Assembly: GCA_964444145.1 (NCBI GenBank)
Contig: CAYUFU010000005.1
Span: 1,667-65,666 of the forward strand
Source: an uncultured Chitinophagales bacterium
GTDB lineage: Bacteria; Bacteroidota; Ignavibacteria; UBA10030; UBA6906
Reading direction: 5' to 3'
Length of the DNA: 64,000 nt
Part shown: in pieces, positions 7,183-24,085 of the stretch
Layout of the letters: every line of letters begins with the position of its first letter
Position numbering within the stretch: the first letter of the stretch is position 1
Made by a program: the position numbers and the translations under genes
Notes under the pieces: model-generated
The model's input: the letters and a program-made list of their open reading frames with translations, nothing else
Databases searched by the model: none
Told to the model about the DNA's origin: nothing

Positions 7183-7183
7183 C

Positions 7184-10798: not shown

Positions 10799-11577
10799 CA
10801 GGGACACTCCGTCATTATTCCGTTTTCGATTCGATACACACCCAACAGTCTCCGCGAGAACTCCGGTAGACCCGGCATGACCTTGTTGAATTCCTGCGTC
10901 ATCCGCATGCGTAAGACCGTGTACACGTACACGACATAGACACAACTCAAGAACACATCGGTCCCGAACAGGTTCTTGCTGATGGTCTGGAATCCCGTAG
11001 CCTCACCTACCTGGTGAACAAACGCGACCGCCTCACCGACACGCAAATAAATGTCTCCGGCGGTTTTGCCGCTGAGGTCGAATGCCTCAACAGTTACCAA
11101 TGGCAGCGCTCCTGTTCGTGTTTTCGGGTCCCACATCCAGCGTGTCCAGAGCCAATAGCGTTCGGGGTCAGTGAAGTGAAGTATCTCGCTGGCGATGTCG
11201 CGACGGATGTTGTCTTCGAGAGGTTCGAGCTTATCCACAAATGTTTGGAACCGCGATTTTGTCGGGTCGCTACCGTAGAGCAGTTCCCACGTCCACGCGC
11301 GCAAGTCATCCGGTCGAAATTGCTTCATGATTGCGTCCGTCTTTCGCCGCGCAGAAAAAATTCGCCGCAGCAACGAAAAGTAATCCGCCGATGCAAGAGA
11401 GGGGAGCGCCTCACGACTGAGTTTTTTTTGAAACCATAGCGCCTTCAATTCCACTTCTGCGCAGATTTTTTGCAGCTCCTCTGCTGCAACTTTCTCCAGC
11501 GCCTGGCGCATGAATTCTTTTGCGGTTTCCGTGTCAACGACTTGGCTCACCCTGAAACCCGATTTGATTTCACGCAA
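10798..11577 (-). CDS. shdrH: Conserved hypothetical in the sHdrH position
   Basis: 259-aa ORF (TTG start in the track; the start is uncertain). No recognisable motif; assigned only by its position between the HdrA-like gene and the next Hdr subunit. Confidence 0.55.
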   Translation of the reverse strand: MREIKSGFRVSQVVDTETAKEFMRQALEKVAAEELQKICAEVELKALWFQKKLSREALPSLASADYFSLLRRIFSARRKTDAIMKQFRPDDLRAWTWELLYGSDPTKSRFQTFVDKLEPLEDNIRRDIASEILHFTDPERYWLWTRWMWDPKTRTGALPLVTVEAFDLSGKTAGDIYLRVGEAVAFVHQVGEATGFQTISKNLFGTDVFLSCVYVVYVYTVLRMRMTQEFNKVMPGLPEFSRRLLGVYRIENGIMTECP

Positions 11578-11761
11578 AGTCGCAAAGCCGCTAAGTTTGT
11601 TTTGAGAAAGTTGAGGAAAGAAGATTTACCTTGTCGGTGGAAGCGCATGAACAGTTCGGGAATCCTCTTCCTCATGTTTTGTTTCTTTTTCGTTGCGTCT
11701 TGCCTGCCCGCCTCACTGTGCTATGATGGCAGGCGGGGCGCCTTTGCGTGAGAATCTCGCG

Positions 11762-12838: not shown

Positions 12839-14018
12839 CCTCCCACGTCAGGTATTGTTTTTCACCGCTCTTCAACCGTTCGGTCGCTGCTTCAAATTCC
12901 TTCCAAGCTTTCTCGTGATCGATTCCGACTTTCTCCAAGAACGCCGTGTTGTCCGTACTGTGCCAGTGGAGTTGCAGCACTTTGTAGGGATGTGCGCCCA
13001 TGGCAAGCGCCGCAATCTGCGAATCGGACATGACGGGAACACCGACATTGCGTCCGTGCGCCTTCGCGGCAAACTGACTTTGGTCGAGCGTTGTCACGCA
13101 ACCCGTGTCGTGCGTGACCGTGACATCGGGATTGGCTTCTTGTTTCATCACTTCGATTTTCCGCATCGTTGCAAACGAGCGGGAGAAATCGCGCGACACA
13201 AGAATGTGGCGGAACCCGAAGCCGCAGCAATCGAACCATGTGGAATAATCCTTCACGTCAATACCCAGGGCTTTCAGTGTTCCGGTAATAATTGCAGACC
13301 GCTGCGCGCCGTAAATTTCCGGATCATACACTGCATCTTCTGCAATGAGCTTATGATAGTGACATGCAGGATGGACCGTTGCGCGTATCATGCTCATGTC
13401 GCGCACCTGATGCGCTGCAATCCTGTCGCGCACGGCGTGCACCCATTCGCTGTAGTGAACAATCTCTTCAGGTATGACGAATTTCTTTCCAAGCCGCGCC
13501 AGAATGTCGCGCACTTGCTTGCGCAGCGCGGCGCTGTGCAAGAGCTGCTGCCGCGTTTCTTTGTAATGTCCGAAGCTCGTGCCGCAATGAATGATGGGGA
13601 AGTATCCCGTTTCAGCCGCCGCCGCAAAGTTGCGCATGGCAACCGCCGCTTGTGCCGCCGCATTCGAGGTTGCTGAGGCATAGTAATTCCACGCCGTGCA
13701 CGACGTCTGGTCGGTCGGGTCAATGTAATCGAGCCCAAGTTGGCGGTTTATCCAAAAGATAGAAGTCGAGTAGCCGGGGATGTGCCCGCACTGACCGCAG
13801 CTCTTGTGATGCCAGGTTTTCTGCACCGGAATCTTTTTCTTCCGCCCGTACTTTGTCTCGACTTCGATGTACGGCTCGGGCACGCGCTGAACCTCCCACT
13901 CACCCTCTTTTTCTAACTCGAAGAGGTGCTCATGAAAATCGTCGGTGGGTGCGTTCTTGACATCGCGAACAAACTCTCGGTCCTTCGCCTGCTTCACTAA
14001 CGCTTCCTGTGGTATCAT
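12825..14018 (-). CDS. shdrB1: sHdrB1-like CCG-domain subunit
   Basis: 397-aa ORF with CCG motif in FDCCGFGFRH and a further Cys-rich region. Confidence 0.8.
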   Translation of the reverse strand: MIPQEALVKQAKDREFVRDVKNAPTDDFHEHLFELEKEGEWEVQRVPEPYIEVETKYGRKKKIPVQKTWHHKSCGQCGHIPGYSTSIFWINRQLGLDYIDPTDQTSCTAWNYYASATSNAAAQAAVAMRNFAAAAETGYFPIIHCGTSFGHYKETRQQLLHSAALRKQVRDILARLGKKFVIPEEIVHYSEWVHAVRDRIAAHQVRDMSMIRATVHPACHYHKLIAEDAVYDPEIYGAQRSAIITGTLKALGIDVKDYSTWFDCCGFGFRHILVSRDFSRSFATMRKIEVMKQEANPDVTVTHDTGCVTTLDQSQFAAKAHGRNVGVPVMSDSQIAALAMGAHPYKVLQLHWHSTDNTAFLEKVGIDHEKAWKEFEAATERLKSGEKQYLTWEDVNA

Positions 14019-14072
14019 GTGGTTTGCTCCTGACTAGTTCTTTCCCAACCTTCTGTGTGCAGAGAGTTCTCC

Positions 14073-14777
14073 TCACTCAAAGCTGACAGCATAGCCCGCT
14101 TCCTCGAGTCGTTCTTCCATCACATCCTGTAAAATCATGAACAACCCCTCGTCCACTTCTTTGATCATATCCATCACGCCAGTCATGTGCCAAATCAAAT
14201 ACAGTTCAATGATGGTCTTCTCGTCCACCTGCCATCCTGTTTCTGTGGTGTGCAATGTTTCGGGCGGCAGTGCGCGGCGCCAAACATCGAGGTTATCCGA
14301 AATCGCTTTCACGTGGGGTCCCCAATCCGGGAACGCGTTCGGCTGCAGCATATCGGGGGAGACTTGCGTGCCGGTTGACATGATCTTGTAGACGACGCGC
14401 CCGTAGCCTTCGAGCGCCTCCTGTGCGGTTGCCAAGCCGTTCTTCACAGCGACTTCGCGCATGATCGTGATGATGCCGCCGGGCGAATTCTTGCGCGGGC
14501 AGCGGTCGCACGAAAAACATTGCGAGCAGTCCCAGATGCTGTCGTTCATCAATGTGTACACGAGGTCCACATCCTCGCGGGCAACGGCTTGCGCAATCTT
14601 GCGCGGACTGAAATCATAGAACCGCGCCGAGGGGCACGCGGCTACACAAATGCCGCATTCATAACAGCCATACAGATACTCCTCATAGCGCAGGTCTGCC
14701 TTGACCTGCTCGAAGAGCCGTTCTTTCTCTTCGTAGGCGACGCTCGCGTATTTTCTCCCTGTCAGGTCGAGAGCCAC
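14073..14777 (-). CDS. shdrC1: sHdrC1-like 2x[4Fe-4S] subunit
   Basis: 234-aa ORF (GTG start) with CYECGICVAACP and CSQCFSCDRCP. Confidence 0.8.
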   Translation of the reverse strand: MALDLTGRKYASVAYEEKERLFEQVKADLRYEEYLYGCYECGICVAACPSARFYDFSPRKIAQAVAREDVDLVYTLMNDSIWDCSQCFSCDRCPRKNSPGGIITIMREVAVKNGLATAQEALEGYGRVVYKIMSTGTQVSPDMLQPNAFPDWGPHVKAISDNLDVWRRALPPETLHTTETGWQVDEKTIIELYLIWHMTGVMDMIKEVDEGLFMILQDVMEERLEEAGYAVSFE

Positions 14778-14820
14778 GATGTATTTTCCTTTTCCTCTTC
14801 AACTAACCGAAGCGAAGTGT

Positions 14821-14927
14821 CTCCACCCATTTGAGGTGATGGATTATTGGATTGGTGGATTCCATTCATCCAACAATCCAGTTCAAGATCATTCGTCCCG
14901 CTTTGCGGGACGCAGGGTTCAGTGAGC
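14821..14927 (-). repeat. Intercistronic two-hairpin repeat, copy A
   Basis: Read on the minus strand: AACCCTGcgtCCCGCAAAGCGGGACGAA...GAATCCAcCAATCCAATAATCCAT, matching 37094..37200. GC hairpin at 14895..14911. AT-rich hairpin arms at 14848..14860 and 14868..14880. Confidence 0.7.
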
Positions 14928-15398
14928 CTACGCCTCAAATCCCTCCACGTGAGCGCATGCCTTGAGATTTTCTTTTTCAATCTTTTGTCGGTATGCTTCC
15001 ACTGCGGCGTCGCCTGTTGACATCGCCGCAAGATCTGCTTGAAGATTCGATGGCTGCATTTTTACAATCCACCCTGCGTTGTAGGGACTTTGATTGATGA
15101 GCTTCGCGTTCTGTCCGACCTTCGCATTGACCTCGATAATCTCTCCTGAGACGGGGGATTTTACGGGACCAACCCATTTGCCGCTTTCGACCGTCGCAAT
15201 TGGTTTTCCTTTTTCGCGCTTCGTGCCGACGCCTTTTGCTTTTGCGTGGAGCAATGGTCCGGCGAGATTTTGCGCGACATCGGTCATGCCTACGAGCACC
15301 GTTCCATCGTCATTGAGTTTTATCCAGGTGTGGTCCTCAACCGCGTAGTAGAGGTCTTTGAGAATGACACAACCACGGACTTCGTCTTTTTCGGGCAT
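14928..15398 (-). CDS. lbpA: GcvH-like lipoate-binding protein LbpA (copy 2)
   Basis: 156-aa ORF with lipoyl-lysine context VESGKWVGPVKSPVSGEI. GGAG SD upstream. Confidence 0.85.
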   Translation of the reverse strand: MPEKDEVRGCVILKDLYYAVEDHTWIKLNDDGTVLVGMTDVAQNLAGPLLHAKAKGVGTKREKGKPIATVESGKWVGPVKSPVSGEIIEVNAKVGQNAKLINQSPYNAGWIVKMQPSNLQADLAAMSTGDAAVEAYRQKIEKENLKACAHVEGFEA

Positions 15399-15500
15399 TG
15401 CTTTTTCTCCTGCTCACTGGTATTAGGCAGCGATTAGCACACCACCGCGTTCTGCACCGCTGTACAATTTGCACCCGCCATTGGTATCCCTTACACTACG

Positions 15501-15878
15501 TCAAAAGTACATCACATGATCCGATTCGAGCGCCAAATCTATGATGCTCGTTGCGCCCAGAATCTCAACGCCGGGAATCAAGTCCTCAGACTGCATGTTC
15601 CACAATGCCATGCTCTGCTGGCAGACGCGCAGCTTCACGCCGGACTCCATCGCCTGCTCAAGCATCGTTTTGAGTGTTACGTCGCTTGTCGGGTCGAGCT
15701 GGACTTTTTCCGCTGCGCCTTGCTTCAATTGATTGGTTCCATCCATCGTGAACCAAACCATCACCTCCATCTCCATTGCCGCCGCCGCCATCGCATAGAA
15801 AAGGGGAGAGTAGGTTCGGCGCGGCGTCTCGACCCCATGGGTTTGTATCACCAAAATTTTTTTCCCTTCGGCATCCAT
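15501..15878 (-). CDS. DsrE/DsrF-family sulfur-carrier-like protein (small)
   Basis: 125-aa ORF with DsrE-like layout (KILVIQTHG...) and a candidate active Cys in LRVCQQS. Confidence 0.7.
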   Translation of the reverse strand: MDAEGKKILVIQTHGVETPRRTYSPLFYAMAAAAMEMEVMVWFTMDGTNQLKQGAAEKVQLDPTSDVTLKTMLEQAMESGVKLRVCQQSMALWNMQSEDLIPGVEILGATSIIDLALESDHVMYF

Positions 15879-15977
15879 CGGGTTATTCTCTGTTGTCGTT
15901 TCCCATTCGATTACTGTTCTCTACCCTCTCGGCGTTCTTTGCAGTCAATTCATTTTCCTGTTTTCGGACAAGTTGCT

Positions 15978-16265
15978 CTAAGGATTGATTTCACACGGCT
16001 TGTTCGGGTCAGCGAGAACGATGAGATACTTCTTGTTCCATTCCCACCCGTCGTGTTCGGACATAAATTCATGCAGCTTGTCTTTTTCGGGATGATGCGT
16101 ATGAAGCTTGAGTGCAAGAGGAATGTTCCGTTCGTCCGTTGCGAGTATCTCCATCAAGAGCCATTCACCGGCGAGATCGTGATAAAGCTGGCTCAACTCA
16201 CTGAGCGCAAGTTCCTTCCCCGTCCAATCATCATTCGGCGCTGGAACCTGTAGCGTCCGTCTCAC
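15978..16265 (-). CDS. Hypothetical 95-aa protein, translationally coupled to the DsrE3-like gene
   Basis: The track ORF 15978..16331 overlaps the dsrE3-like gene by 70 nt. An in-frame GTG at 16265 overlaps the dsrE3-like stop as GTGA. No motif recognised. Confidence 0.5.
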   Translation of the reverse strand: MRRTLQVPAPNDDWTGKELALSELSQLYHDLAGEWLLMEILATDERNIPLALKLHTHHPEKDKLHEFMSEHDGWEWNKKYLIVLADPNKPCEINP

Positions 16266-16780
16266 ACAAACAAACTCACGTTCGCGTTTGCCGCGTATTC
16301 GAGGAACGTCGCCGCTCCGCCGATCTCGCACTCCGGAATAAAATCTTCTCTGGTGAAGCCGAATACATCCATCGTCATCTGGCAGCCAATCATGCGGACG
16401 TCCATTTCAACACATGCACTGCGCAAGTCCCCAACGGTCGCGACGCCTTTCTTTTTGAATGTCTGCTTCATCAGATTCGTGGCGACGTTTTCAAAGCCGG
16501 GTATGTTGCCCATTAACAAGTTTGGAATGTGCCAATTGATTTTCTGGAATCCCTCTGGTCCGAACGGCATCTTCATCGGCATCGCCGGGTTACCGACGGG
16601 CGTTACGGTTGCATGAAGGTCCTTCTTCAGCAACGGCAAGCCATAGAACGTGAAAAAGATTGCAACTTCCCAATCCATCGAGGCTGCCGCGCTCGCGAGA
16701 ATGAAGGGAGGGTACGCCCAATCCAGCGTTCCCTTGCTGGCAATAAGTGCCAGACGATGTTTTCCATTACTCTGTGCCAT
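16262..16780 (-). CDS. DsrE3-type (COG2210-like) sulfur-carrier protein
   Basis: 172-aa ORF with conserved Cys context MIGCQMTMDVFG and a GGAG SD. Confidence 0.75.
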   Translation of the reverse strand: MAQSNGKHRLALIASKGTLDWAYPPFILASAAASMDWEVAIFFTFYGLPLLKKDLHATVTPVGNPAMPMKMPFGPEGFQKINWHIPNLLMGNIPGFENVATNLMKQTFKKKGVATVGDLRSACVEMDVRMIGCQMTMDVFGFTREDFIPECEIGGAATFLEYAANANVSLFV

Positions 16781-16867
16781 AAGGATTCTCCTTCAATGCA
16801 ATGAAAAGAATTCTCAACCGAGAACGGAATAGTTGCCGCTTGAAGAGAGCCTCGCTCGATGCGTTTG

Positions 16868-17110
16868 TTAGTGAGTTACCTTGATGAGGAAGCGGAATTT
16901 TCCGTTGTCTTCTTTCTGCGCATGAAGCAACTCATGCTGCGTTTGCCGCGCCCATGCTTGCATGTCAGGAATGGACCCAGGGTCGGTTGCAACCATCTCG
17001 AGGACTTCTCCCACGTGCATTTCTTTGATGACCTTCTTGGTCTTGACAACAGGCATGGGACACAGTAAGCCGCTGCAATCGAGAGTTTTGTTAGGTTTCG
17101 TTTCGTTCAT
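16868..17110 (-). CDS. tusA: TusA-family sulfur carrier
   Basis: 80-aa ORF with canonical LDCSGLLCPMPVVKTKK (CPxP motif). Its ATG overlaps the upstream stop as ATGA. Confidence 0.9.
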   Translation of the reverse strand: MNETKPNKTLDCSGLLCPMPVVKTKKVIKEMHVGEVLEMVATDPGSIPDMQAWARQTQHELLHAQKEDNGKFRFLIKVTH

Positions 17111-17394
17111 GGTCGTGACTCCTGAACGGATTTGCGGATGTAGAAAGTGAATTCGTTCTCGCGTTCCCTCACCTCAATCAACTCGTGGCCCGTGCTCCGA
17201 CACCACGCTGGGAAATCGGAGACCGCGTTGGGGTCGGTGGAGATCAATTCCAATACCTCATACGCTCGAAGTGCGTTCATAGCGCGGTGCAGTTCAACTA
17301 CTTGCATGGGACCGAAGGTCTCACGACAATCAAGTTGCTTGCTTATCACAAGATGATTGTTGAACACGATTGGAAGGTCTGAACCTGGCTTCAA
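17107..17394 (-). CDS. TusA-like protein lacking the CPxP cysteine
   Basis: 95-aa ORF (TTG in the track; a GTG 27 nt downstream is an alternative start). It aligns by eye to TusA, but the motif reads LDCRETFGPMQVVELHR, so Cys becomes Gly and the second Pro becomes Gln. Confidence 0.7.
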   Translation of the reverse strand: MKPGSDLPIVFNNHLVISKQLDCRETFGPMQVVELHRAMNALRAYEVLELISTDPNAVSDFPAWCRSTGHELIEVRERENEFTFYIRKSVQESRP

Positions 17395-17417
17395 GATTCT
17401 GAGCTATGCAGATTCTT

Positions 17418-17433
17418 GGCAAACAACATACCA
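17418..17433 (-). promoter_or_regulatory. Candidate sigma54 (-24/-12) promoter for the tusA-dsrE-lbpA-shdr genes
   Basis: The minus strand reads TGGTAT-GTTGT-TTGC with exact GG-N10-GC spacing, 24 nt upstream of the TTG at 17394. Confidence 0.55.
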
Positions 17434-17605
17434 GTCGGACGGATAAATTGCAAGTAGAAGTTTTTTGCTCTCTTTTCGAAAAGGGGGATAATTTTGCGAG
17501 GAATCAATTTGCCAAGCGCGTGATGGGGAAATAGAGGTCATAATTCTTTGGCTACTTTTTATGGTGGAAAATATGGTTTGTGGCATTGCAGCCCTGAAAG
17601 GTCCG

Positions 17606-18622
17606 CTACACCTTCACAGCCGGCAATCCACTAACGCTGCTGAAACTCACCTTCGCGCTCTCGTCGGGATGGATGAACTCAAGCGCGCTTTTCACCGCCA
17701 TCGCCGCTTCGGCAAATCCGGTCGCGATGAGCTTGATTTTCCCGGGATACGTTGCCACATCTCCCGCGGCAAAGACGCCGGAAACATTCGTGCACATGCG
17801 CGGGTTCACTTTGATATGTTTGTCTTCCAGCTCAAGCCCCCACTGCGCGAGCGGTCCAAGATTGATTTTGAATCCAATCATGGGAAGAAGCACATCCGTC
17901 TCCAGCGTGCGAGTGTTCTGACGCCAATCGCGAATCGTGACGGCTTCCAAACGCTCGGTGCCGTGCAGCTCTTCGACGATAGTGGAGGTAAGGAGGCTCA
18001 CGCGTCCGCGACCGGCAAGCCGTTGGATTGCGCGCATCGTGGAGGGATGCGCGACAAAACCATCGGAGCGATGCACCATCGTAATCTCCGCGGCGACGTC
18101 GGCGAGGTTCAGCACCCAATCCGCCGCCGAGTCGCCGCCCCCCATGATGACGACGCGCTTGCCGCGGAAATCTTCCTTTCGCTGTACGGCATAGAAGATT
18201 CCTTTCCCTTGAAATTCCTCAGCGCGCTCATGCGTCAACTTGCGCGGCGTGATGATTCCGTTGCCGCTCGTGATGATGACGGCGCGAGAAACGTACGCAT
18301 CTCGTTCGGTGGCGACTTCGAAGAGCGTATGGCTTCCGTTCGGTTCGATGCGTCGGAGCGAGACGGCAAGTTCATTGAGATGCACGTCGGGATGAAACTG
18401 AAACGCCTGCTCTTCTAAATTTTTTACCAAGTCACGCGAGAGAATTTTCGGCAAGCCAAAGACATCGAGGACATATTTTTCCGAATAGAGCGCGGTCATC
18501 TGTCCGCCGAGCGCTGGCAGCACTTCGACAATGCGAGAAGTCGCTTCGTGCATTCCGGCGCGGAACGCCGCCGCTAAACCAGCAGGGCCGCCGCCGATGA
18601 TCGTGAGGTCGCGAACTTCCAT
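17606..18622 (-). CDS. Thioredoxin-reductase-type ferredoxin-NADP+ reductase (FNR)
   Basis: The track ORF extends to 18871 over the CBS gene. I use ATG 18622 (MEVRDLTIIGGGPAGLAAA). A second nucleotide fold is GKRVVIMGGGDSAADW, and the C-terminal motif is GVFAAGDV. Confidence 0.8.
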   Translation of the reverse strand: MEVRDLTIIGGGPAGLAAAFRAGMHEATSRIVEVLPALGGQMTALYSEKYVLDVFGLPKILSRDLVKNLEEQAFQFHPDVHLNELAVSLRRIEPNGSHTLFEVATERDAYVSRAVIITSGNGIITPRKLTHERAEEFQGKGIFYAVQRKEDFRGKRVVIMGGGDSAADWVLNLADVAAEITMVHRSDGFVAHPSTMRAIQRLAGRGRVSLLTSTIVEELHGTERLEAVTIRDWRQNTRTLETDVLLPMIGFKINLGPLAQWGLELEDKHIKVNPRMCTNVSGVFAAGDVATYPGKIKLIATGFAEAAMAVKSALEFIHPDESAKVSFSSVSGLPAVKV

Positions 18623-18629
18623 CGGCTCG

Positions 18630-19052
18630 CTACTCGCGCCCTGTCGCCTCGCCGTTTTCCAGCGTGACGAAATCATCCTGCACGTAGGCGCGCAGAATGT
18701 CGCCGCGCGAAACGACTCCCACCAACTTGTCGTTGCGAACCACGGGCAGGCGAATGAACCGACGCTCGCGCATAAGACGGATTGCTTCGTCCACCTCGGC
18801 GTCTTCCTCGATGCACACAGGATCCTTGCTCGTGATGTCTTCGGCGACGGCGGAACAAAAGCCGTACTCATCGCGATGCTGCAGCACTTTGAGGATGTCG
18901 AACTCGGTCACGATGCCGATGACGCGCTGTTGCTCATCAACCACAGGCAAGCCGCTGAAAAAACCCATAAGCATTTTCTTGGCGAGGTCCTGACAGTTGA
19001 CATTTTTCGTCGCCGCGACAACACGGCGGCTCATCACCTCACCGACTTTCAT
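18630..19052 (-). CDS. CBS-domain pair protein
   Basis: 140-aa ORF with two CBS-like halves (VVDEQQRVIGIVTEFDILK and VVRNDKLVGVVSRGDILR). Overlaps the cbbS end by 14 nt. Confidence 0.8.
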   Translation of the reverse strand: MKVGEVMSRRVVAATKNVNCQDLAKKMLMGFFSGLPVVDEQQRVIGIVTEFDILKVLQHRDEYGFCSAVAEDITSKDPVCIEEDAEVDEAIRLMRERRFIRLPVVRNDKLVGVVSRGDILRAYVQDDFVTLENGEATGRE

Positions 19053-19362
19053 GGTTCGCTCCCAACGGTTGATACACTACGAAGCTCAACACCTGACCCT
19101 GGCGCCGATTGTCGTAGCCATTGATCTTCACGTAGCAGCCGGGGTTCGCCGCTTTGCACGCTTCGATCTCGGCGAGAACATCGGCTGACGTTCGCGCGTT
19201 GAATAACGGGAGTCTCCAAAAACTCCAATAGGTGTTCGTTGGTCCGGGCTGGTCGGTGTACTCGATGTTCGGAATCCAGCCGTTCTCAAGAACGTATTGG
19301 ATCTGTTTCGCGACTTGCGCTTCGGTCATCGGGGGCAAGAAGGAAAAAGTTTCAGTTTTCAT
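19039..19362 (-). CDS. cbbS: RuBisCO small subunit (form I)
   Basis: 107-aa ORF with FSFLPPMTEAQVAKQIQYVLENGW...YWSFWRLPLF, typical of form I small subunits. Confidence 0.9.
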   Translation of the reverse strand: MKTETFSFLPPMTEAQVAKQIQYVLENGWIPNIEYTDQPGPTNTYWSFWRLPLFNARTSADVLAEIEACKAANPGCYVKINGYDNRRQGQVLSFVVYQPLGANHESR

Positions 19363-19404
19363 GTGGATGCTCCGTAATAGAAAAGGATTTGTTTTGTCGC
19401 CGCT

Positions 19405-20868
19405 TCACACCGCGACAGGCTCGATGGCGTCAACGGCTTTGTAGTCGAACGTGATTTCTTTCCACGTCTCCATCGCGACGCGCAGCTCTGGCGATCGCCG
19501 CGCCGCGGCTTTGAGAATGCTCGGACCTTCCGCGACGAGCGCGCGACCTTCGTTGCGCGCCTGGACAACGGCTTCGAGCGCAACGCGATTCGCCGTCGCG
19601 CCCGCGGCGCTTCCCCACGGGTGACCGAGCGTGCCGCCACCAAATTGCAGCACGACATCGTCGCCGAAAATCGCCACCAGCTCCGGCATGTGCCACACGT
19701 GAATACCGCCCGACGCGACGGGAAACATCCCCGGCATCGAAAGCCACGGTTGGCCGAAATAAATGCCGCGGCTCTTATCCGCCTTGACAAAACTCTCGCG
19801 CAGCAAATCGTTCGCCCCCAATGTCGAAGCCCGGTCGCCTTCCAACTTGCCGACGACGGTGCCGTTGTGCACATGATCGGCGCCGACGATGCGGCACCAT
19901 TTCGCGAGCACGCGCCAGTGAATGCCGTGATTGCGCTGGCGATCAATCACCGCGTGCATTGCGCGATGCGCGTGCAGCAACATGCCGTTGGCGCGACACC
20001 ACTTCGAGAGCGATGCGAACGCCGTGAATCCAACCGTCAGGTAATCAACCATGATGATGCGCGAGCCAAGCTCCTTCGCCAGCTCGGCGCGTTTGTACAG
20101 TTCTTCCATATCGCCGGCGGTGACGTTGAGATAGTGCCCCTTGCGCTCGCCGGTTTCCGCTTCCGCTTTGTGCACTGCTTCCATGACGAACTCGAAGCGG
20201 TCGCGCCAGCGCATGAACGGCTGCGACGTGATGTTCTCATCGTCTTTCGTGAAATCCAATCCTCCACGCAGCGCTTCGTACACGACGCGTCCATAATTCT
20301 TCGCCGAGAGTCCGAGCTTCGGCTTCATCGTCCCGCCCAGGATTGCGCGACCGTATTTGTTCATGCGATCGCGTTCGACTTGGATGCCGTGCGGCGGACC
20401 TTGAAACGTATTGAGCAGCACCGGCGGAATCCGAATGTCTTCCAGTCGTAAGGCGCGCAGCGCTTTGAATCCGAAAACATTCCCGACAATGGAGGACATC
20501 AGATTCGGCATCGAGCCTTCTTCAAAGAGATCGAGCGGATATGCGATGTACGCGATGAACTGATCGTCGCAGCCCGCGACCGGCTCGATGCGATACGTTC
20601 TGCCCGCGTAGCGCGCCATGTCCGTCAACAAATCCGACCAGACTGTAGTCCACGTGCCCGAGGAAGATTCCGCAGCAACCGCCGCCGCGGCTTCCTCCCA
20701 CGGAACACCTTCCTGCGGCGTTACGCGAAATGCAGCAAGCACTTCCGTTTCTTTTGGCGTGTAGCCGGGATCGTAGTAGAAGCGTCCGGCGGAACTGTAC
20801 TCTTTGACTCCGGCGTCGAACAATGCTTTGCCGTTCGGACCCTTTACAGATTTTGTTTGATCGTTCAT
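19405..20868 (-). CDS. cbbL: RuBisCO large subunit, form I (green-type signatures)
   Basis: 487-aa ORF with [25 protein letters not shown] (carbamyl-Lys), [17 protein letters not shown] and GGIHVWHMP. Confidence 0.95.
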
Positions 20869-20896: not shown

Positions 20897-21937
20897 TCAT
20901 CTTGTGTGCTGTGTGCTCGAGGAGCGGACTTTCTGCGCCGTACGCGGCACCGAGCTCATCCTGCTAAGCGCTGCGACAGGCGGAGCAAACGGTACGTTCT
21001 CTATGTCGCTGTACTGACGCAGCAAGTGGTACGTGAGCAAGAGTTGTGTGAGCGCGAGCGGGTGACTATGCCGCACCTCTGTCTGGTCAACGTAATCGCC
21101 GAATTGATCTTCGCCTACAGGACGCAAGCCGTTCAAGTGGAGCCATATCGCCTGTTCGAGCCGTTCAGCTTGTCCGGCGTTTACATTGCCGTCAACGTTG
21201 AGAAAGTCCACCGGGCGCCCGCAGTCGCGTCCCAAATCCAATCGCACGCCTCCCGCCGTTGAGCGGTTGCCGTTGGTGAGATAGCTCAGATCCGGATGAG
21301 GAATCGTCGGTCGCAGCACGAGTTGCACGTTGAGATTGGGTCCGGCGTTTTCGGGCGCGACGCCCTCCGATGGATGAAAGCGCACGACGACGTCTGCGTG
21401 CTCGCGCTGCGGTCGGATGAAATCGCGCGAGTCCGGCTCTCGCTTCACCATCTCGGCGCGAACCTGCTCGGAGGTATAGCCGCGCTTCGTGGTATCGCGC
21501 TTGATTTTCCATACGGTCCGCAGATCCTCCGGTGGATCGAGATACACTTTGACGTCGTAAAATTGTCGCATCACCGGCGTGAAGAATCCGAGCAAGCCTT
21601 CGACAATGATGAACTCTGTCGGCTGGATGTATTCGGGTCGAACAAGAGTTCCGTTAGAATGATCATAGACCGGTTTCAAGATAGGCTGACCGTAATGCAG
21701 CCGCTCGAGATGCAGCTCCATGACGTCGAGGTAATTGCAATCGGGATGCAGCGCGGTGATGCCTAACTGCGCGCGTTCCGTGCGATCATATCTGTGATAG
21801 TCGTCGGTGCAAATGCGTGTGACGCGCTCGGTTCCTAAAATATTCGCGAGTCCAGCGCTGATGGTCGTCTTGCCCGCGGCGCTGTCCCCCACAATGCCGA
21901 TGATGATAGGACGTTTTGCTCGCATCGCTTTGTTCAT
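20897..21937 (-). CDS. prk: Phosphoribulokinase (long, cyanobacterial/plant-like form by eye)
   Basis: 346-aa ORF with P-loop GIVGDSAAGKTT, then CTDDYHRYDR and WKIKRDTTKRGYT. Confidence 0.9.
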   Translation of the reverse strand: MNKAMRAKRPIIIGIVGDSAAGKTTISAGLANILGTERVTRICTDDYHRYDRTERAQLGITALHPDCNYLDVMELHLERLHYGQPILKPVYDHSNGTLVRPEYIQPTEFIIVEGLLGFFTPVMRQFYDVKVYLDPPEDLRTVWKIKRDTTKRGYTSEQVRAEMVKREPDSRDFIRPQREHADVVVRFHPSEGVAPENAGPNLNVQLVLRPTIPHPDLSYLTNGNRSTAGGVRLDLGRDCGRPVDFLNVDGNVNAGQAERLEQAIWLHLNGLRPVGEDQFGDYVDQTEVRHSHPLALTQLLLTYHLLRQYSDIENVPFAPPVAALSRMSSVPRTAQKVRSSSTQHTR

Positions 21938-21969: not shown

Positions 21970-21984
21970 GCGAACTCCATGCCA
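21970..21984 (-). promoter_or_regulatory. Candidate sigma54 promoter upstream of prk-cbbLS
   Basis: The minus strand reads TGGCAT-GGAGT-TCGC with exact GG-N10-GC spacing. The GC lies 32 nt upstream of the prk ATG (21937). Confidence 0.5.
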
Positions 21985-22245
21985 GCAAACTTACGAATCG
22001 TGAATTGCGCAAATGCAGTGTGTTTCGTGAAAGTGAATGTCGTCGCGGCGAAGAGCCGCGACAAGAATGACGCAGCGAGACTGGTTCCGCTGTCAACGTT
22101 CGTTCCGCGTCGTGATGCGAGATGACATTCAGAATTGTCTTCTGCAAGCGAAGAATCTCGAAATGGGTGGGATTCTGAATCAGGAAGTAGTGGTGACACG
22201 CGTGTCGCAGCAAAGTGTGACGAGGATGTCGCAGAGAAAAAGCAA

Positions 22246-23706
22246 CTACTCTTCGCCAGCCGTCTTGAACACCTCCGAACCGATGCTGTGTTTTGCCATG
22301 AGCCGCTGAAACGTCCGTCGCGGAACTTTCGCTGCATCGGCGGCGCGAGAGATATTCCCTCCACTTTCGGCAAGGTAGCGGCAAAGAGCTTGATGCTCGA
22401 ACTTGTCAATCATCGTTCCCTTCAGCGACATCAAGCCGTCGCGCAGCGCGTGCACGTCCAAACTTTCGCCGGCATGTTGTGGCTGGAGGACAAGCGGCAG
22501 ATGCTCGATGCCGATCTCATCCGTTGTCGTGAGCACCACCGCGCGTTCGATGACATTTTCCAGCTCGCGCAAGTTGCCGGGCCAATCGTACATCGTCAAC
22601 GCCGAAAGCGTTTCAGGAGAGATTTTGCTTACACGCTTGTTGACTTTCGCCTGCGCAGATTTCAGGAAGTGGTACGCAAGCATGGGAATGTCCTCGTGGC
22701 GCTCGCGCAAGGGAGGCAGGTGAATCGTGAATGCATTCAAGCGATAGAAAAGGTCGGCGCGAAACTCGCCGCGCTCGATCGCGTCTTCAAGCTTTCGGTT
22801 CGTCGCGGCGATAATGCGCACCTCCACCTTCTTGGTCTGAACGTCTCCGACGGCACGAATTTCTCCGGACTGCAAGAAGCGCAGCAGCTTCGCCTGCATC
22901 TCCATCGGCATGTCGCCAATCTCATCGAGAAACACCGTGCCGTTGTGCGCCATTTCGAGGAGTCCGATCCGATCGGACGCCGCGCCTGTAAACGCGCCTC
23001 TCTTGTAGCCGAACAATTCGCTTTCAATCAACGAGGGACTGAACGCCGTGCAATTGACCGTGACCAACGGCTTGTCGCGATGTGGGCTGCTTTTGTGAAT
23101 CATGCGGGCGACGACTTCTTTCCCCGTTCCGCTTTCACCGCGAATGAGGACGGTGGTCGGCGTCGGCGCGACTTTCGCGATCAGGCTTGCTGCCTCGCGC
23201 ATCGGTTCCGTTTTGCCAATGACGAACTCGCCCGCGGCATGACGCTCAAGCTCGCGCAGCATCAAGCCGTAGCGGTCTTCAAGAATTTCGCGTTTGCCAT
23301 ACTCGTCCAACAGCGTCCAGACGAAGAGCGCGCCAACGCCTCCAATCAGCTCCGTCTGCTGCGGTTTCTCGCGGAGCAACTCCTCCTGCAATTCGCAGCT
23401 ACCCGTGACGTTGATGATCAGATCCAATGCATCGTTGTGAATGAACTCGCGGTAGTCCAGTGACACAGGCACGCCGCGTTGTCGCGCAAGCGACATTCCC
23501 GGCGCGTTCGCATTGATATCAACCACCCCGACGATGGTGATGCCCGGATCGTTTTGGATGAGCTGCAAGAGCATACTGCCAGCTTTCCCCGCGCCGATGA
23601 GCAGCACGTTGACGACATGGTTGGTCGCGCTGAAGTTCCGTTTGGTGTCTGGTTCAATCATGAGTTTCGAATCAAAAACTTTCGACGTTCGAAATTCGAT
23701 GTTCAT
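22246..23706 (-). CDS. Sigma54-dependent transcriptional activator with N-terminal Rossmann-like (GxGxxG) domain
   Basis: 486-aa ORF. AAA+ motifs GESGTGKE and ESELFGYKRGAFTGA, plus a C-terminal HTH. The N-terminus reads VLLIGAGKAGSMLLQLI...GVVDIN...DLIINVTG instead of REC, GAF or PAS. Confidence 0.85.
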   Translation of the reverse strand: MNIEFRTSKVFDSKLMIEPDTKRNFSATNHVVNVLLIGAGKAGSMLLQLIQNDPGITIVGVVDINANAPGMSLARQRGVPVSLDYREFIHNDALDLIINVTGSCELQEELLREKPQQTELIGGVGALFVWTLLDEYGKREILEDRYGLMLRELERHAAGEFVIGKTEPMREAASLIAKVAPTPTTVLIRGESGTGKEVVARMIHKSSPHRDKPLVTVNCTAFSPSLIESELFGYKRGAFTGAASDRIGLLEMAHNGTVFLDEIGDMPMEMQAKLLRFLQSGEIRAVGDVQTKKVEVRIIAATNRKLEDAIERGEFRADLFYRLNAFTIHLPPLRERHEDIPMLAYHFLKSAQAKVNKRVSKISPETLSALTMYDWPGNLRELENVIERAVVLTTTDEIGIEHLPLVLQPQHAGESLDVHALRDGLMSLKGTMIDKFEHQALCRYLAESGGNISRAADAAKVPRRTFQRLMAKHSIGSEVFKTAGEE

Positions 23707-23782: not shown

Positions 23783-24085
23783 TTATGAAGCAAGCAATCG
23801 CATCGCCACTGCGACAAGAGCAAGCGCGAGAAGCCGCACGATCCATAGCCCGCGAATGTGTTGCGCAACTGCCGCGCCGAATTGCGCGCCGACGATGACT
23901 GCCAAACCAATTGCGATGGCAAGTGTCGGCAGAACGTTCCCAAGAAGCACGTGACCGAGCGCTCCAACACCCGATGAAATCGTGAGAATGAAAAGAGACG
24001 TCGCTGTCGCGACGTGCGCCGGAAAACGAAGAAGACGCACCATCGCCTGCAACAAGCACCCCTGCGCGTTACGACCCCATTTCAT
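23783..24085 (-). pseudogene. TauE/SafE (TSUP) sulfite-exporter-like C-terminal half; remnant or half-size gene
   Basis: 100-aa ORF matching only the last ~4 TM helices of TSUP proteins (HVATATSLFILTISSGVGALGHVLLGNV...GAQFGAAVAQHI). The N-terminal half is absent. The start overlaps the SulP gene end by 17 nt. Confidence 0.45.

What the first reader, a model, noticed from the sequence alone, without database searches (positions are those of the whole stretch)
17606..19362. RuBisCO small subunit gene translationally linked to a CBS-pair protein and a TrxR-type FNR
**Seen:**
- The cbbS end overlaps the CBS-protein start by 14 nt.
- The CBS stop is 7 nt from the FNR start (MEVRDLTIIGGGPAGL).
- No cbbX/cbbQ/cbbO activase or carboxysome genes are present in the window.

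**Established:** CBS pairs bind adenosyl ligands. TrxR-type FNRs interconvert NADPH and ferredoxin.

**Inference:** this may be a previously undescribed energy/redox-sensing accessory module of a CBB operon. Alternatively, the FNR may supply reduced ferredoxin to the downstream radical SAM/sHdr machinery.
Basis: partly seen in the sequence, partly recalled or inferred. Interest (0 to 1): 0.6.

Follow-up and report, generated by a model that had tools for sequence, protein, structure and literature searches.

The report
Conserved CBS–FNR pair in Calvin-cycle operons
A small nucleotide-sensing (CBS) protein and a ferredoxin–NADP reductase sit inside this bacterium's CO2-fixation operon, and the same two genes recur next to Calvin-cycle genes in at least four bacterial phyla, which points to an undescribed control-and-redox accessory set for non-photosynthetic carbon fixation.

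Summary
On the minus strand the genes PRK, cbbL, cbbS, CBS and FNR are packed with gaps of 28, 42, −14 and 7 nt. A 211-nt spacer then precedes a type II sHdr sulfur-oxidation cluster. No activase or carboxysome gene was found in the window.

The arrangement is not a one-off. The CBS protein belongs to one clade of 30 non-redundant sequences, and 27 of them lie beside Calvin-cycle or pentose-phosphate genes. None of 58 homologues outside the clade do.

CBS→FNR→cbbL-cbbS-cbbX-PRK occurs in about 13 Acidobacteriota species and one Verrucomicrobiia species. Zhuqueibacterota have PRK-CBS-RPE-TAL-TKT-FNR instead.

The same PRK/CBS/FNR set accompanies three different RuBisCO types. CBS orthologues also sit beside RPE or RpiA in loci without RuBisCO. 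The link is therefore to the pathway (the ribulose-5-phosphate node), not to cbbS.

A σ54 activator with a Rossmann-like N-domain, and σ54 promoters, are conserved upstream.

The FNR is a true TrxR-type FNR: no CxxC, and both flavin-stacking residues are present.

Function is inferred only: an adenylate sensor plus an NADP(H)/ferredoxin link. I found no RNA data and no prior description.

The parts
22246..23706 (-). sigma54-dependent activator (EBP): N-terminal Rossmann-like domain with GxGxxG, an AAA+ sigma54-interaction domain, and a Fis-type HTH
   Evidence: Pfam Sigma54_activat E=1.5e-69, with weak GFO_IDH_MocA and DapB_N hits at residues 32-103. Orthologues (56-79% identity overall, N-domain 38-67%) lie directly upstream of CBB clusters in 16 other loci. 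A profile of the N-domain hits NAD(P)-binding Rossmann domains only marginally (E=8e-4 to 0.05, including Rex).
22040..22064 (-). terminator-like hairpin after the EBP gene
   Evidence: 10-pair stem with 7 G-C pairs. Terminator-like sites as a class are not enriched over shuffles (13 found against 11.3 expected), so this is weak evidence.
21970..21984 (-). sigma54-type promoter candidate TGGCATGGAGTTCGC, ending 32 nt upstream of the PRK start codon
   Evidence: Found. The same motif type, TGGCA(T/C)GGnnTTCGC, stands between the EBP gene and the first cbb gene in L005 and L020. TGGAACGGGAATTGC-type sites (9 of 10 consensus positions) lie about 190-215 nt upstream of CBS in Acidobacteriota loci.
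20897..21937 (-). phosphoribulokinase of the cyanobacterial/plant type, with no Cys in the P-loop
   Evidence: Pfam PRK E=2e-41. NCBIfam NF005655 at 419 bits against a cutoff of 236. The P-loop reads GDSAAGK in all relatives.
19405..20868 (-). RuBisCO large subunit, form I
   Evidence: Pfam RuBisCO_large E=1e-132. The best PDB match is 7QSW, followed by cyanobacterial enzymes; red-type enzymes score lower.
19039..19362 (-). RuBisCO small subunit
   Evidence: Pfam RuBisCO_small E=9e-39.
18630..19052 (-). stand-alone CBS-pair (Bateman) protein of 140 aa; its start overlaps the cbbS stop by 14 nt
   Evidence: Two CBS motifs, E=4e-31. Both G-h-h-(T/S)-x-x-D nucleotide-site motifs are invariant in the ten closest orthologues: G46, V48, E50-D52 and G112, S115, R116, D118 (T49 is Ser in some). 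The AF2 model has pLDDT 92. Foldseek top hits are AcuB with AMP/ADP, MJ0922 and CBSX2 with AMP. It is a member of the CBB/PPP-linked clade.
17606..18622 (-). thioredoxin-reductase-type ferredoxin-NADP+ reductase of 338 aa; starts 7 nt after the CBS stop
   Evidence: PDB matches 3AB1 (1.9e-84), 2ZBW and 3LZW score far above true TrxRs (1e-27). There is no CxxC. The si-face Tyr, the GGGDSA motif and the C-terminal Phe are conserved. It falls below the NCBIfam TrxR cutoff, 154 against 343 bits.
17395..17605 (-). 211-nt spacer between FNR and tusA, holding the sigma54-like element TGGTATGTTGTTTGC (17433-17419); the probable operon boundary
   Evidence: Seen. The motif TGGTAT-N5-TTTGCCAA is conserved in the otherwise diverged 345-360-nt spacers of L017, L177 and L178.

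Best explanation
The finding is the 3' half of a five-gene Calvin-cycle operon (PRK-cbbL-cbbS-CBS-FNR) in a member of the FCB-group candidate phylum Zhuqueibacterota. The operon is probably driven by a sigma54 promoter and by an adjacent activator whose N-terminal Rossmann-like domain may sense NAD(H).

CBS and FNR are not RuBisCO factors. They are a conserved, horizontally shared accessory pair of CBB / pentose-phosphate gene sets.

Most likely mechanism (inferred, not shown):
- The CBS-pair protein binds adenine nucleotides at its two intact canonical sites.
- It passes the cell's energy state to an enzyme of the ribulose-5-phosphate node. PRK is the ATP-spending committed step; RPE and RpiA are its suppliers.
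- This would replace the thioredoxin/CP12 control that this PRK cannot have, because it lacks the P-loop cysteine.
- The TrxR-type FNR couples the NADP(H) pool to ferredoxin or flavodoxin, so that reducing power for the cycle is made together with its enzymes.

Shown here: the gene order and overlaps, the family memberships, the conservation of the association, and the promoter motifs.

Inferred: co-transcription, the ligand, the target, and the direction of electron flow.
For: Gene packing is 28, 42, -14 and 7 nt, against 211 nt before tusA.

The CBS orthogroup (46-87% identity) forms one NJ clade of 30 non-redundant sequences. Of these, 27 have CBB, PPP or FNR neighbours; none of the 58 homologues outside the clade (anammox, Nitrospirota, Nitrospinota) do.

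The association survives at least eight different gene orders:
- EBP-CBS-FNR-cbbLSX-PRK in Acidobacteriota and Verrucomicrobiia.
- rbcL-PRK-CBS-RPE-TAL-TKT-FNR in Zhuqueibacteraceae.
- GlpX-CBS-RPE-FNR-hydrogenase.
- TAL-CBS-FNR-cbbLSX-PRK-TKT, and others.

Identity to the window is high for PRK (69-75% in most CBB-linked loci; 51% in KSB1 L020), CBS (46-87%) and FNR (54-76%). cbbL is only 54-63% except in the loci that share the window's RuBisCO type (77-80% in L020, L097 and L099), and the RuBisCO type differs between loci: SSU-bearing green-like here, SSU-less 6URA-like in L001/L177, and red-type with CbbX in L005 and Acidobacteriota.

CBS orthologues lie beside RPE or RpiA in loci without RuBisCO or PRK.

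A different, His-type FNR subfamily follows PRK in the closest cbbL relatives L097 and L099, which looks like an independent recruitment.

A housekeeping-type FNR at 47% identity (Gemmatimonadales) has no CBB context.

Conserved sigma54 promoters and the EBP lie upstream of the CBB clusters; in Acidobacteriota, Verrucomicrobiia and this window CBS and FNR lie between or after the cbb genes of that unit.

Precedents: CBS-CP12 inhibits PRK in an AMP-dependent way (PMC6142219). The nearest structural neighbours, AcuB and CBSX2, are nucleotide-bound.
Against: There is no transcript evidence: no RNA run holds the locus or a relative.

No ligand or partner has been shown. No ferredoxin or thioredoxin gene lies in any of these clusters.

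CBS occurs without FNR (L003, L007, L009, L020, L078) and an FNR-like gene occurs without CBS (L097, L099), so the two are not an obligate pair.

Many Acidobacteriota loci may descend from a single transfer, so they are not fully independent observations.

In CBS-CP12 the CP12 part, which is absent here, was needed to pass the AMP signal to PRK.

The Rossmann assignment of the EBP N-domain is marginal (E=8e-4 at best).

Sigma54-like patterns are not enriched in the window as a whole (47 found against 71 expected). The promoter calls rest on position and cross-locus conservation.
Confidence: 0.55

Rival explanations
1. CBS and FNR work as a pair. The CBS protein is an adenylate-dependent regulator of the FNR itself, in the way plant CBSX proteins modulate the thioredoxin/NTR system. 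It would gate NADPH-ferredoxin exchange according to energy charge.
For: CBS and FNR are directly adjacent on the same strand (7-206 nt apart) in this window, in 13 species-level genomes of Acidobacteriota and Verrucomicrobiia, and in L180. CBSX1 and CBSX2 are among the closest structural neighbours, and FNR has the TrxR fold.
Against: In Zhuqueibacteraceae the two genes are separated by RPE, TAL and TKT. CBS overlaps RPE instead, by 8-26 nt. CBS-clade genes exist without FNR within 10 kb (L003, L007, L009, L020, L078). The FNR lacks the CxxC through which Trx-system regulation works.
Confidence: 0.15
2. The FNR belongs functionally to the downstream sulfur-oxidation cluster. It would take the place of LipT as NAD(P)H-dependent electron donor (via ferredoxin or flavodoxin) for the radical-SAM lipoyl synthases LipS1/S2, or it would feed sHdr.
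For: FNR is followed by tusA-tusA-dsrE-lbpA-shdr in the window, L017, L177 and L178. The window's lipoate-assembly genes (two sLpl-like ligases and two or three radical-SAM proteins, 963-6460) include no LipT-like flavoprotein. LipT is proposed as such a donor and is present in only about 53% of bacteria that have LipS1/S2 (PMC10332631).
Against: sHdr genes are absent within 10 kb of the FNR orthologues in about 17 loci of Acidobacteriota, Verrucomicrobiia and others. In L002 and L005 the FNR is followed by a NiFe hydrogenase. A spacer of 211-360 nt with a conserved sigma54-like element separates FNR from tusA. The FNR lies about 11 kb from the lipS genes, at the other end of the cluster.
Confidence: 0.12
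3. The CBS protein is a RuBisCO-specific factor (an assembly, activation or inhibitor-release helper) that makes up for the missing CbbX/CbbQO activase.
For: There is a 14-nt overlap with cbbS and no activase gene in the window. In L078 CBS lies directly upstream of cbbL.
Against: Most CBS-linked clusters do have CbbX. The same CBS clade accompanies three RuBisCO types, including an SSU-less one, and occurs beside RPE or RpiA with no RuBisCO within 10 kb. The closest cbbL relatives of the window (L097-L099) have no CBS gene. The protein has no AAA+ or chaperone-like domain.
Confidence: 0.07
4. There is no specific function. A generic CBS protein and a housekeeping FNR were carried along with a mobile CBB gene cassette.
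For: The high PRK, CBS, FNR and EBP identities across phyla indicate horizontal spread of a cassette. Both families are ubiquitous and often of unknown role.
Against: The association persists through at least eight different gene orders and RuBisCO replacements. Hitch-hikers would not be expected to survive that. CBB-linked CBS sequences form one clade, and no out-clade homologue is CBB-linked. A second FNR subfamily was recruited independently after PRK.
Confidence: 0.08

Closest known systems
CBS-CP12 fusion proteins of cyanobacteria (Microcystis aeruginosa; PDB 5NMU; PMC6142219)
   Same: A CBS pair is dedicated to the Calvin cycle. [quoted passage not shown] It is encoded in a conserved gene cluster.
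   Different: The window protein has no CP12 domain and no Cys pairs. In CBS-CP12 that domain was required for hexamer formation and for passing the signal to PRK. Sequence similarity is low (E=3e-6). The cluster partner here is an FNR, RPE or PRK, not TrxA. The host is a non-phototroph.
Plant chloroplast CBSX1/CBSX2 (PDB 4GQV, 4GQY, 3SL7)
   Same: Stand-alone single CBS-pair proteins of similar size. They bind AMP, are among the best structural matches (TM about 0.75-0.78), and act on the redox system that controls Calvin-cycle enzymes.
   Different: Identity is only 25-28%. Their partners are thioredoxins, and no Trx gene is in these clusters. The neighbouring TrxR-fold enzyme here lacks the dithiol.
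AcuB of Bacillus (PDB 9S4V, 9QS7 and others)
   Same: It is the best structural neighbour. It is a small CBS-pair protein crystallised with AMP, ADP, ATP or Ap4A, and it is encoded in an operon with the enzymes it is thought to control.
   Different: AcuB has an extra C-terminal domain (about 200-220 aa). Its pathway, acetoin / acetyl-CoA synthetase control, is unrelated. Identity is about 30%.
Thioredoxin-reductase-type ferredoxin-NADP+ reductases (Chlorobaculum tepidum FNR 3AB1; Bacillus subtilis YumC 3LZW; Thermus thermophilus 2ZBW)
   Same: Same fold and length, with E=1e-80 to 1e-84. There is no CxxC. The si-face Tyr and the re-face aromatic in a C-terminal extension are both present. The CBB-linked clade has Phe or Tyr there; this window has Phe, as in the C. 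tepidum enzyme (PMC12786658).
   Different: The known members are stand-alone housekeeping or photosynthetic enzymes. None is described as part of a cbb operon. The CBB-linked clade has its own C-terminal signature, KV(K/R)V-x-(F/Y)SS-x-x-G-(L/I/V)-P.
Classical cbb-operon accessory genes and regulator (CbbX, CbbQ/CbbO, CbbY, CbbZ; LysR-type CbbR)
   Same: Non-enzymatic or auxiliary genes kept inside cbb operons and co-regulated with RuBisCO and PRK.
   Different: There is no homology: CBS and FNR are not AAA+ proteins or phosphatases. The regulator here is a sigma54 enhancer-binding protein with a Rossmann-like N-domain, not CbbR.
LipT of sHdr/LbpA lipoate-assembly clusters (PMC10332631, PMC11094781)
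   Same: An FAD-containing NAD(P)H-dependent oxidoreductase encoded with sulfur-oxidation genes and proposed to deliver electrons to radical-SAM enzymes.
   Different: LipT lies inside lipS1-lipT-lipS2 sets, whereas this FNR lies at the far end of the cluster behind its own spacer and promoter motif. Orthologues of this FNR occur without any sHdr genes. Homology to LipT could not be tested here.

Membership tests
Stand-alone CBS-pair (Bateman module) proteins | Two tandem CBS motifs (PF00571) that make up essentially the whole protein | tested here: met
   Pfam CBS E=4e-31 with two stretches in a 140-aa protein.
Stand-alone CBS-pair (Bateman module) proteins | Bateman fold (beta-alpha-beta-beta-alpha, twice) | tested here: met
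   AF2 model with mean pLDDT 92 and pTM 0.81. Foldseek TM 0.77-0.80 to MJ0922, AcuB, CBSX2 and MJ0100.
Stand-alone CBS-pair (Bateman module) proteins | Ribose-phosphate motif G-h-h-(S/T)-x-x-(D/N) in the nucleotide sites | tested here: met
   GIVTEFD (residues 46-52) and GVVSRGD (112-118). G46, V48, E50, F51, D52, G112, S115, R116 and D118 are invariant in the ten closest orthologues.
Stand-alone CBS-pair (Bateman module) proteins | Actual binding of an adenosyl ligand | not testable with these tools
   Needs ITC or DSF on purified protein.
CBS-CP12 | C-terminal CP12 domain with conserved Cys pairs | tested here: not met
   The protein ends at residue 140 with a short beta-hairpin. Pfam reports only CBS. 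It is not a member.
CBS-CP12 | AMP-dependent inhibition of PRK | not testable with these tools
   An enzymatic assay is needed. The only evidence here is genomic adjacency to PRK in Zhuqueibacterota.
Plant-type CBSX regulators | Functional partner is a thioredoxin | tested here: inconclusive
   No WCGPC-type gene lies within about 10 kb in any CBS-linked locus. A Trx encoded elsewhere cannot be excluded.
TrxR-type ferredoxin-NADP+ reductase | Two-domain TrxR-like flavoprotein that is closer to characterised FNRs than to thioredoxin reductases | tested here: met
   3AB1 at 1.9e-84, 2ZBW at 1.7e-83 and 3LZW at 1.8e-80, against the best TrxR at 1.5e-27. The TIGR01292 TrxR model scores 154 bits, below its cutoff of 343.
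TrxR-type ferredoxin-NADP+ reductase | Absence of the redox-active CxxC of TrxR | tested here: met
   The only Cys is in RMCTNV. The TrxR CxxC position reads ITPRKL.
TrxR-type ferredoxin-NADP+ reductase | Flavin-stacking residues: a si-face Tyr (Tyr57 in CtFNR) and a re-face aromatic in the C-terminal extension (Phe337 in CtFNR) | tested here: met
   ALYSEKY aligns with ALYPEKH, and VSFSSVS aligns with NVFSSVK. The residue roles are taken from PMC12786658.
TrxR-type ferredoxin-NADP+ reductase | NADP(H)-binding GGGDSA and HR-x-x-x-F motifs | tested here: met
   MGGGDSAADW and VHRSDGF are conserved in all CBB-linked orthologues.
TrxR-type ferredoxin-NADP+ reductase | Ferredoxin/flavodoxin:NADP+ oxidoreductase activity | not testable with these tools
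   Needs an enzyme assay. No ferredoxin gene is encoded nearby.
RuBisCO activases (CbbX, CbbQ/O, Rca) | AAA+ ATPase domain | tested here: not met
   Neither CBS nor FNR has an AAA+ domain. tblastn with CbbX finds nothing in the window.
LipT (sHdr-associated flavoprotein) | Encoded within the lipS1 / slpl(AB) / lipS2 gene set | tested here: not met
   The FNR is at 17606-18622, while the lipoate-assembly genes are at 963-6460.
LipT (sHdr-associated flavoprotein) | Sequence homology to LipT | not tested
sigma54 enhancer-binding proteins (for the upstream regulator) | Central AAA+ sigma54-interaction domain plus a C-terminal HTH, and a -24/-12 promoter at the target operon | tested here: met
   PF00158 at 1.5e-69, with AAA_lid_14 and HTH_8. 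GG-N10-GC elements are conserved upstream of the cbb operons in 16 loci.

The most novel reading that the evidence does not exclude
Non-phototrophic Calvin-cycle bacteria of several phyla share a previously unrecognised three-part control system. It would replace the CbbR and CP12/thioredoxin logic known from proteobacteria, cyanobacteria and plants. Its parts would be:
- a sigma54 activator that reads NAD(H) through a Rossmann-like domain and switches the operon on;
- a stand-alone CBS protein that reads AMP/ATP and directly throttles PRK (or RPE/RpiA) at the ribulose-5-phosphate node;
- a dedicated TrxR-type FNR that supplies or balances NADPH and ferredoxin for the cycle.

The set would travel horizontally as a unit, independently of the RuBisCO type.
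Probability: 0.3. Interest if true: 0.75.

Novelty: new variant of a known kind. Interest (0 to 1): 0.6.

Why it matters
Control of the Calvin cycle is well understood in plants, cyanobacteria and proteobacteria (thioredoxin, CP12, CbbR and the activases). It is hardly understood in the newly recognised soil and hot-spring chemoautotrophs, such as Acidobacteriota, Verrucomicrobiota and Zhuqueibacterota. These organisms fix CO2 using H2 or sulfur compounds.

A conserved CBS sensor, a dedicated FNR and a sigma54 activator give three concrete, cloneable candidates for how these organisms match CO2 fixation to energy and redox state. They may also be useful parts for engineered CBB pathways.

The finding also shows that this accessory set is kept while RuBisCO itself is swapped. 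That says something about what the stable core of a transferable CBB cassette is.

Tried and rejected
- **Transcript evidence.** Three searches for RNA runs (the whole locus, cbbL alone, and an acidobacterial relative) returned none. Co-transcription therefore stays inferred.
- **Generic promoter and terminator scan.** Neither class is above shuffled expectation: 6 promoter-like sites against 4.1 expected, and 13 terminator-like sites against 11.3. I did not use it, apart from noting one hairpin.
- **Window-wide sigma54 pattern.** It is not enriched (47 found against 71 expected). Only positional and cross-locus conservation was used.
- **Reverse survey from cbbL** (metagenome scan). Only three loci (77-80% identity) resemble the window. 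They have an FNR-like gene of another subfamily and no CBS. All hits at 76% identity or less lack CBS and FNR, and most show a cyanobacterial/plastid-like cbbL–gap–cbbS layout. The module therefore does not track this RuBisCO lineage.
- **Search for ferredoxin, rubredoxin or thioredoxin genes in the clusters.** None were found.
- **Small ORFs between CBS, TKT and FNR in L180 and L005.** They have no cofactor motifs and were dropped.
- **C-terminal hairpin of CBS as a clade-specific partner peptide.** Rejected, because the EF-x-VF / DF-x-TL strand is also present in anammox homologues.
- **CBS homologues of anammox bacteria.** They sit beside hemerythrin and HslUV genes, which is unrelated. This sets the limit of the orthogroup at about 50% identity.
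- **N-domain of the activator against PDB.** Only marginal Rossmann hits. The domain is reported as 'Rossmann-like', not as a proven NAD sensor.
- **Literature.** Ten searches found no paper describing CBS or FNR genes in cbb clusters. The Zhuqueibacterota paper (PMC11683472) draws the CBB cluster without mentioning them.
- **Unused tools.** The third homologue search and the representative-library search were not used, because nothing decisive depended on them.


Full report
**1. What is in the window**

Between 17606 and 23706 all genes lie on the minus strand. In order they are:

- A sigma54-dependent activator (23706-22246).
- A 308-nt spacer.
- Phosphoribulokinase (21937-20897).
- RuBisCO large subunit (20868-19405) and small subunit (19362-19039).
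- A 140-aa protein made of two CBS motifs (19052-18630).
- A 338-aa flavoprotein (18622-17606).

The gaps are 28, 42, −14 and 7 nt.

The 14-nt overlap is ATGAAAGTCGGTGA.

The upstream ATG of the CBS gene is the true start. M1-K2-V3 is conserved in orthologues that lie in quite different contexts.

After the flavoprotein comes a 211-nt spacer and then a sulfur-oxidation cluster:

- tusA, tusA, dsrE3, a hypothetical gene, dsrE and lbpA.
- shdrC1-B1-A, a hypothetical gene, and a fused HdrC2/B2-like protein.
- etfB and etfA.
- A second lbpA, a REP-associated transposase, two lipoate ligases and radical-SAM genes.

This matches the type II sHdr layout described in PMC11094781.

Pfam scans of nearly all ORFs of at least 110 aa found no CbbX, CbbQ or CbbO and no microcompartment protein. 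tblastn with a CbbX from a relative also found none.

Contigs of two independent metagenome runs cover 16500-20226 with 0-2 differences. The cbbS-CBS-FNR-tusA order is therefore not a mis-assembly. The only break is inside cbbL, with equal depth on both sides.

**2. What the two proteins are**

*The flavoprotein is a thioredoxin-reductase-type ferredoxin-NADP+ reductase.*

- Its best solved relatives are Chlorobaculum tepidum FNR (3AB1, 1.9e-84), the Thermus enzyme 2ZBW and Bacillus YumC (3LZW). They score about 57 orders of magnitude better than any real thioredoxin reductase.
- It scores far below NCBI's TrxR cutoff.
- It has no CxxC.
- It keeps the si-face Tyr, the GGGDSA and HRS-x-x-F motifs, and the C-terminal Phe that stacks on the flavin in the C. 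tepidum enzyme.

*The CBS protein is an ordinary Bateman module by fold.*

- The AF2 model has pLDDT 92.
- The nearest structures are AcuB with AMP/ADP, MJ0922, CBSX2 with AMP, CBSX1 and MJ0100.
- Both ribose-phosphate motifs (GIVTEFD and GVVSRGD) are essentially invariant in its orthogroup; T49 alone varies to Ser.
- It has no CP12 domain.

**3. Is the arrangement conserved?**

Yes, and this is the main result.

A homologue search shows a tight orthogroup (54-87% identity, about 140 aa). It is followed by a step down to anammox, Nitrospina and Nitrospira proteins at 50% identity or less.

I read the gene neighbourhoods of these proteins. I also read 80 species-level genome loci, scoring them with tblastn for CBB and pentose-phosphate genes.

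In a neighbour-joining tree of 88 non-redundant sequences, all CBB/PPP-linked proteins fall into one clade of 30.

- 27 of the 30 have such neighbours.
- The three exceptions include a 948-nt contig and a gene at a contig edge.
- None of the 58 sequences outside the clade has such neighbours.

The gene orders differ by lineage:

- **Acidobacteriota** (Acidobacteriaceae, Ca. Sulfotelmatobacter, Terriglobales, Pyrinomonadaceae) **and one Verrucomicrobiia MAG:** EBP-(x)-CBS-FNR-cbbL-cbbS-cbbX-PRK(-TKT). Variants have TAL between CBS and FNR.
- **Zhuqueibacteraceae** (Ca. Coneutiohabitans thermophilus, 86% CBS identity, and relatives): rbcL-PRK-(second CBS)-CBS-RPE-TAL-TKT-FNR.
- **Other FCB contigs:** EBP-cbbLS-cbbX-PRK-CBS-RPE-TKT-FNR-hydrogenase, and GlpX-CBS-RPE-FNR-hydrogenase.
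- **A KSB1 MAG:** EBP-cbbLS-PRK-TKT-GlpX-CBS-RPE.
- **Loci without RuBisCO or PRK:** CBS is still next to RPE and/or RpiA.

CBS overlaps RPE by 8-26 nt in three lineages. Tight coupling to whichever cycle gene is adjacent is therefore the rule. The coupling to cbbS is special to this window.

**4. Pathway, not RuBisCO**

The window's RuBisCO is an SSU-bearing form. It is closest to 7QSW and to cyanobacterial enzymes.

Its nearest relatives by CBS, FNR and PRK have different enzymes:

- L001, L013 and L177 carry an SSU-less enzyme closest to 6URA.
- L005 and the Acidobacteriota carry a CbbX-associated form.

PRK (69-75%), CBS (46-87%), FNR (54-76%) and the activator (56-79%) are well conserved between these loci. 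KSB1 L020 is the exception for PRK, at 51%. cbbL is only 54-63% identical, except in the loci that share the window's RuBisCO type.

The reverse survey from cbbL found only three close relatives (77-80%). They have GlpX-cbbLS-PRK, no CBS gene, and two of them (L097, L099) have a TrxR-type FNR of a different (His-type) subfamily directly after PRK. That looks like an independent recruitment of an FNR to a cbb cluster.

A 47%-identical FNR of Gemmatimonadales has no CBB context.

**5. Regulation**

The activator has a characteristic N-terminal domain:

- GxGxxG and an Asp at the end of the second strand are invariant.
- There are weak Pfam GFO_IDH_MocA and DapB_N hits.
- Profile hits to NAD(P) Rossmann domains, including Rex, are marginal (E=8e-4 to 0.05).

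Orthologues of the whole protein and of this domain lie directly upstream of the CBB clusters in 16 other loci.

GG-N10-GC elements close to the sigma54 consensus stand between the activator and the first operon gene:

- TGGAACGGGAATTGC-type sites lie about 190-215 nt before the CBS start in Acidobacteriota.
- TGGCA(T/C)GGnnTTCGC is found in the window (21984-21970, ending 32 nt before the PRK ATG), in L005 and in L020.

In Acidobacteriota, CBS and FNR are thus the first genes between the promoter and cbbL.

The FNR-tusA spacer holds a second sigma54-like element, TGGTAT-N5-TTTGCCAA. It is conserved between the window and the otherwise diverged spacers of L017, L177 and L178. This marks a separate sulfur-oxidation transcription unit.

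No RNA data could be found, so operon structure is inferred.

**6. How it most likely works**

*Shown:*

- Family membership.
- Intact nucleotide and flavin sites.
- Conserved association with CBB and pentose-phosphate genes.
- Independence from RuBisCO type.
- Conserved sigma54 control elements.

*Inferred:*

- The CBS protein reports adenylate status to an enzyme of the ribulose-5-phosphate node. PRK is the most attractive target. It is the ATP-spending committed step, it is adjacent in Zhuqueibacterota, and it is of the cyanobacterial/plant type (NF005655, 419 bits). It lacks the P-loop cysteine (GDSAAGK) that, from established knowledge of plant PRK, forms the thioredoxin-regulated disulfide.
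- The precedent is CBS-CP12, which inhibits PRK only together with AMP (PMC6142219).
- The FNR links NADP(H) to ferredoxin or flavodoxin in step with the cycle. The direction of flow cannot be told, and no ferredoxin or thioredoxin gene is encoded nearby.

*Rivals:*

- CBS regulates the FNR itself. Adjacency in about 15 loci supports this, but the two genes are separable elsewhere.
- The FNR serves the sHdr and lipoate-assembly genes as a LipT substitute. The juxtaposition is conserved in four loci of this lineage and LipT is absent from the window. However, there are no sHdr genes near the orthologues elsewhere, and the sHdr unit has its own promoter motif.
- CBS is a RuBisCO-specific helper. 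Section 4 contradicts this.
- The two genes are mere hitch-hikers. This is unlikely given persistence through at least eight gene orders.

**7. Comparison, novelty and verdict**

Each protein is a clear member of a known family: the stand-alone CBS pair and the TrxR-type FNR. The CBS protein is not a member of CBS-CP12, because it has no CP12 domain.

What appears to be new is the association. A specific CBS clade, a specific FNR clade and a sigma54 activator with a Rossmann-like sensor form a conserved accessory set of cbb clusters in non-phototrophs.

Ten literature searches found no description. The paper that defines Zhuqueibacterota shows the CBB cluster without mentioning these genes.

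I rate it a new variant of a known kind: nucleotide- and redox-linked control of the Calvin cycle. It is moderately to clearly interesting and fully testable with standard biochemistry.

Noticed in passing
window 22246-23706 (-), promoter candidate 21970-21984 (-); L005, L020, L022-L036, L078: A sigma54 enhancer-binding protein with an N-terminal Rossmann-like domain (invariant GxGxxG and Asp) is conserved directly upstream of CBB clusters in at least three phyla, together with -24/-12 promoter elements. CBB operons are classically controlled by LysR-type CbbR, so this looks like a different, possibly NAD(H)-sensing, regulator.
   Followed up: yes
L001 7216-8583, L177 1831-3162, L013; L005 4822-6956; window 19039-20868: Close relatives with nearly the same PRK, CBS and FNR carry different RuBisCO types. 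One is SSU-less and 6URA-like (form I'-type), one is red-type with CbbX, and the window has an SSU-bearing green-like enzyme inserted between PRK and CBS. RuBisCO was replaced within a stable operon frame.
   Followed up: partly
window 963-17394 (-): A type II sHdr-like sulfur-oxidation cluster: tusA x2, dsrE3, dsrE, lbpA x2, shdrC1B1A, a fused HdrC2/B2 (sHdrB3-like) protein, etfBA, two lipoate ligases and two or three radical-SAM proteins. No EMO gene and no LipT-like flavoprotein were recognised in the window. A REP-associated tyrosine transposase (6539-7141) sits in the middle of it.
   Followed up: partly
window 17419-17433 (-); L017, L177, L178 spacers: A sigma54-like element, TGGTAT-N5-TTTGCCAA, is conserved just upstream of tusA in otherwise diverged spacers. 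This suggests that the sulfur-oxidation unit is also sigma54-dependent. A second sigma54 activator (response-regulator type, 27973-29376) and a PAS histidine kinase (29342-30856) lie nearby.
   Followed up: partly
L011 2065-2496, L012, L013, L177 4483-4923, L180 6463-6936: A second, different stand-alone CBS-pair protein (143-157 aa, C-terminal EIxxLxxYI helix) sits between PRK and the 140-aa CBS gene in some Zhuqueibacteraceae, and upstream in L180. It is absent from the window.
   Followed up: partly
L097 6817-7776, L099 6461-7420: The closest cbbL relatives of the window have a TrxR-type FNR of another subfamily (His at the re-face position, 41% identity) directly after PRK, and no CBS gene.
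   Followed up: partly
window 20897-21937 (-): PRK is of the cyanobacterial/plant type but has Ala-Ala in place of Gly-Cys in the P-loop (GDSAAGK). It keeps the second Cys (RICTDDYH). The window's copy has a unique 19-residue Ser/Thr/Arg-rich C-terminal extension.
   Followed up: partly
window 24069-25775 (-); L007 7755-9920: A SulP/STAS anion transporter lies just upstream of the activator and CBB operon. Another SulP gene lies directly upstream of CBS-RPE-RpiA in L007. SulP members include bicarbonate transporters, so this could be a DIC uptake gene.
   Followed up: no
window 58504-59265 (+); L036 9180-9920, L030 4934-5830: A protein of about 250 aa has a cupredoxin-like H..H...C..H..M pattern and a CarboxypepD_reg-like C-terminal domain. 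In some Acidobacteriota it is the first gene between the sigma54 promoter and CBS. Its homologue in the window (43% identity) sits between a multihaem cytochrome c and cytochrome oxidase genes.
   Followed up: partly
L024 2403-3392: The FNR gene of this Acidobacteriaceae MAG aligns only at its two ends. The middle reads out of frame, which means either a frameshift or pseudogene, or an assembly error.
   Followed up: no
window 20200-20230: Logan assemblies of both runs that hold the locus break at the same 30-nt stretch inside cbbL, with a local depth bump (125x against 94x). This is probably a graph branch caused by other RuBisCO genes in the community.
   Followed up: partly
window 25799-27916 (-), 35438-40127 (+), 53293-63630 (+): Several other features were noted. 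An FG-GAP repeat protein has a T9SS sorting domain, which supports FCB-group origin. There is a molybdopterin oxidoreductase with a fused 4Fe-4S/NrfD subunit. There is also a Rieske / cytochrome b / multihaem c / cytochrome oxidase gene set. Together these indicate an aerobic respiratory chain next to the autotrophy genes.
   Followed up: no
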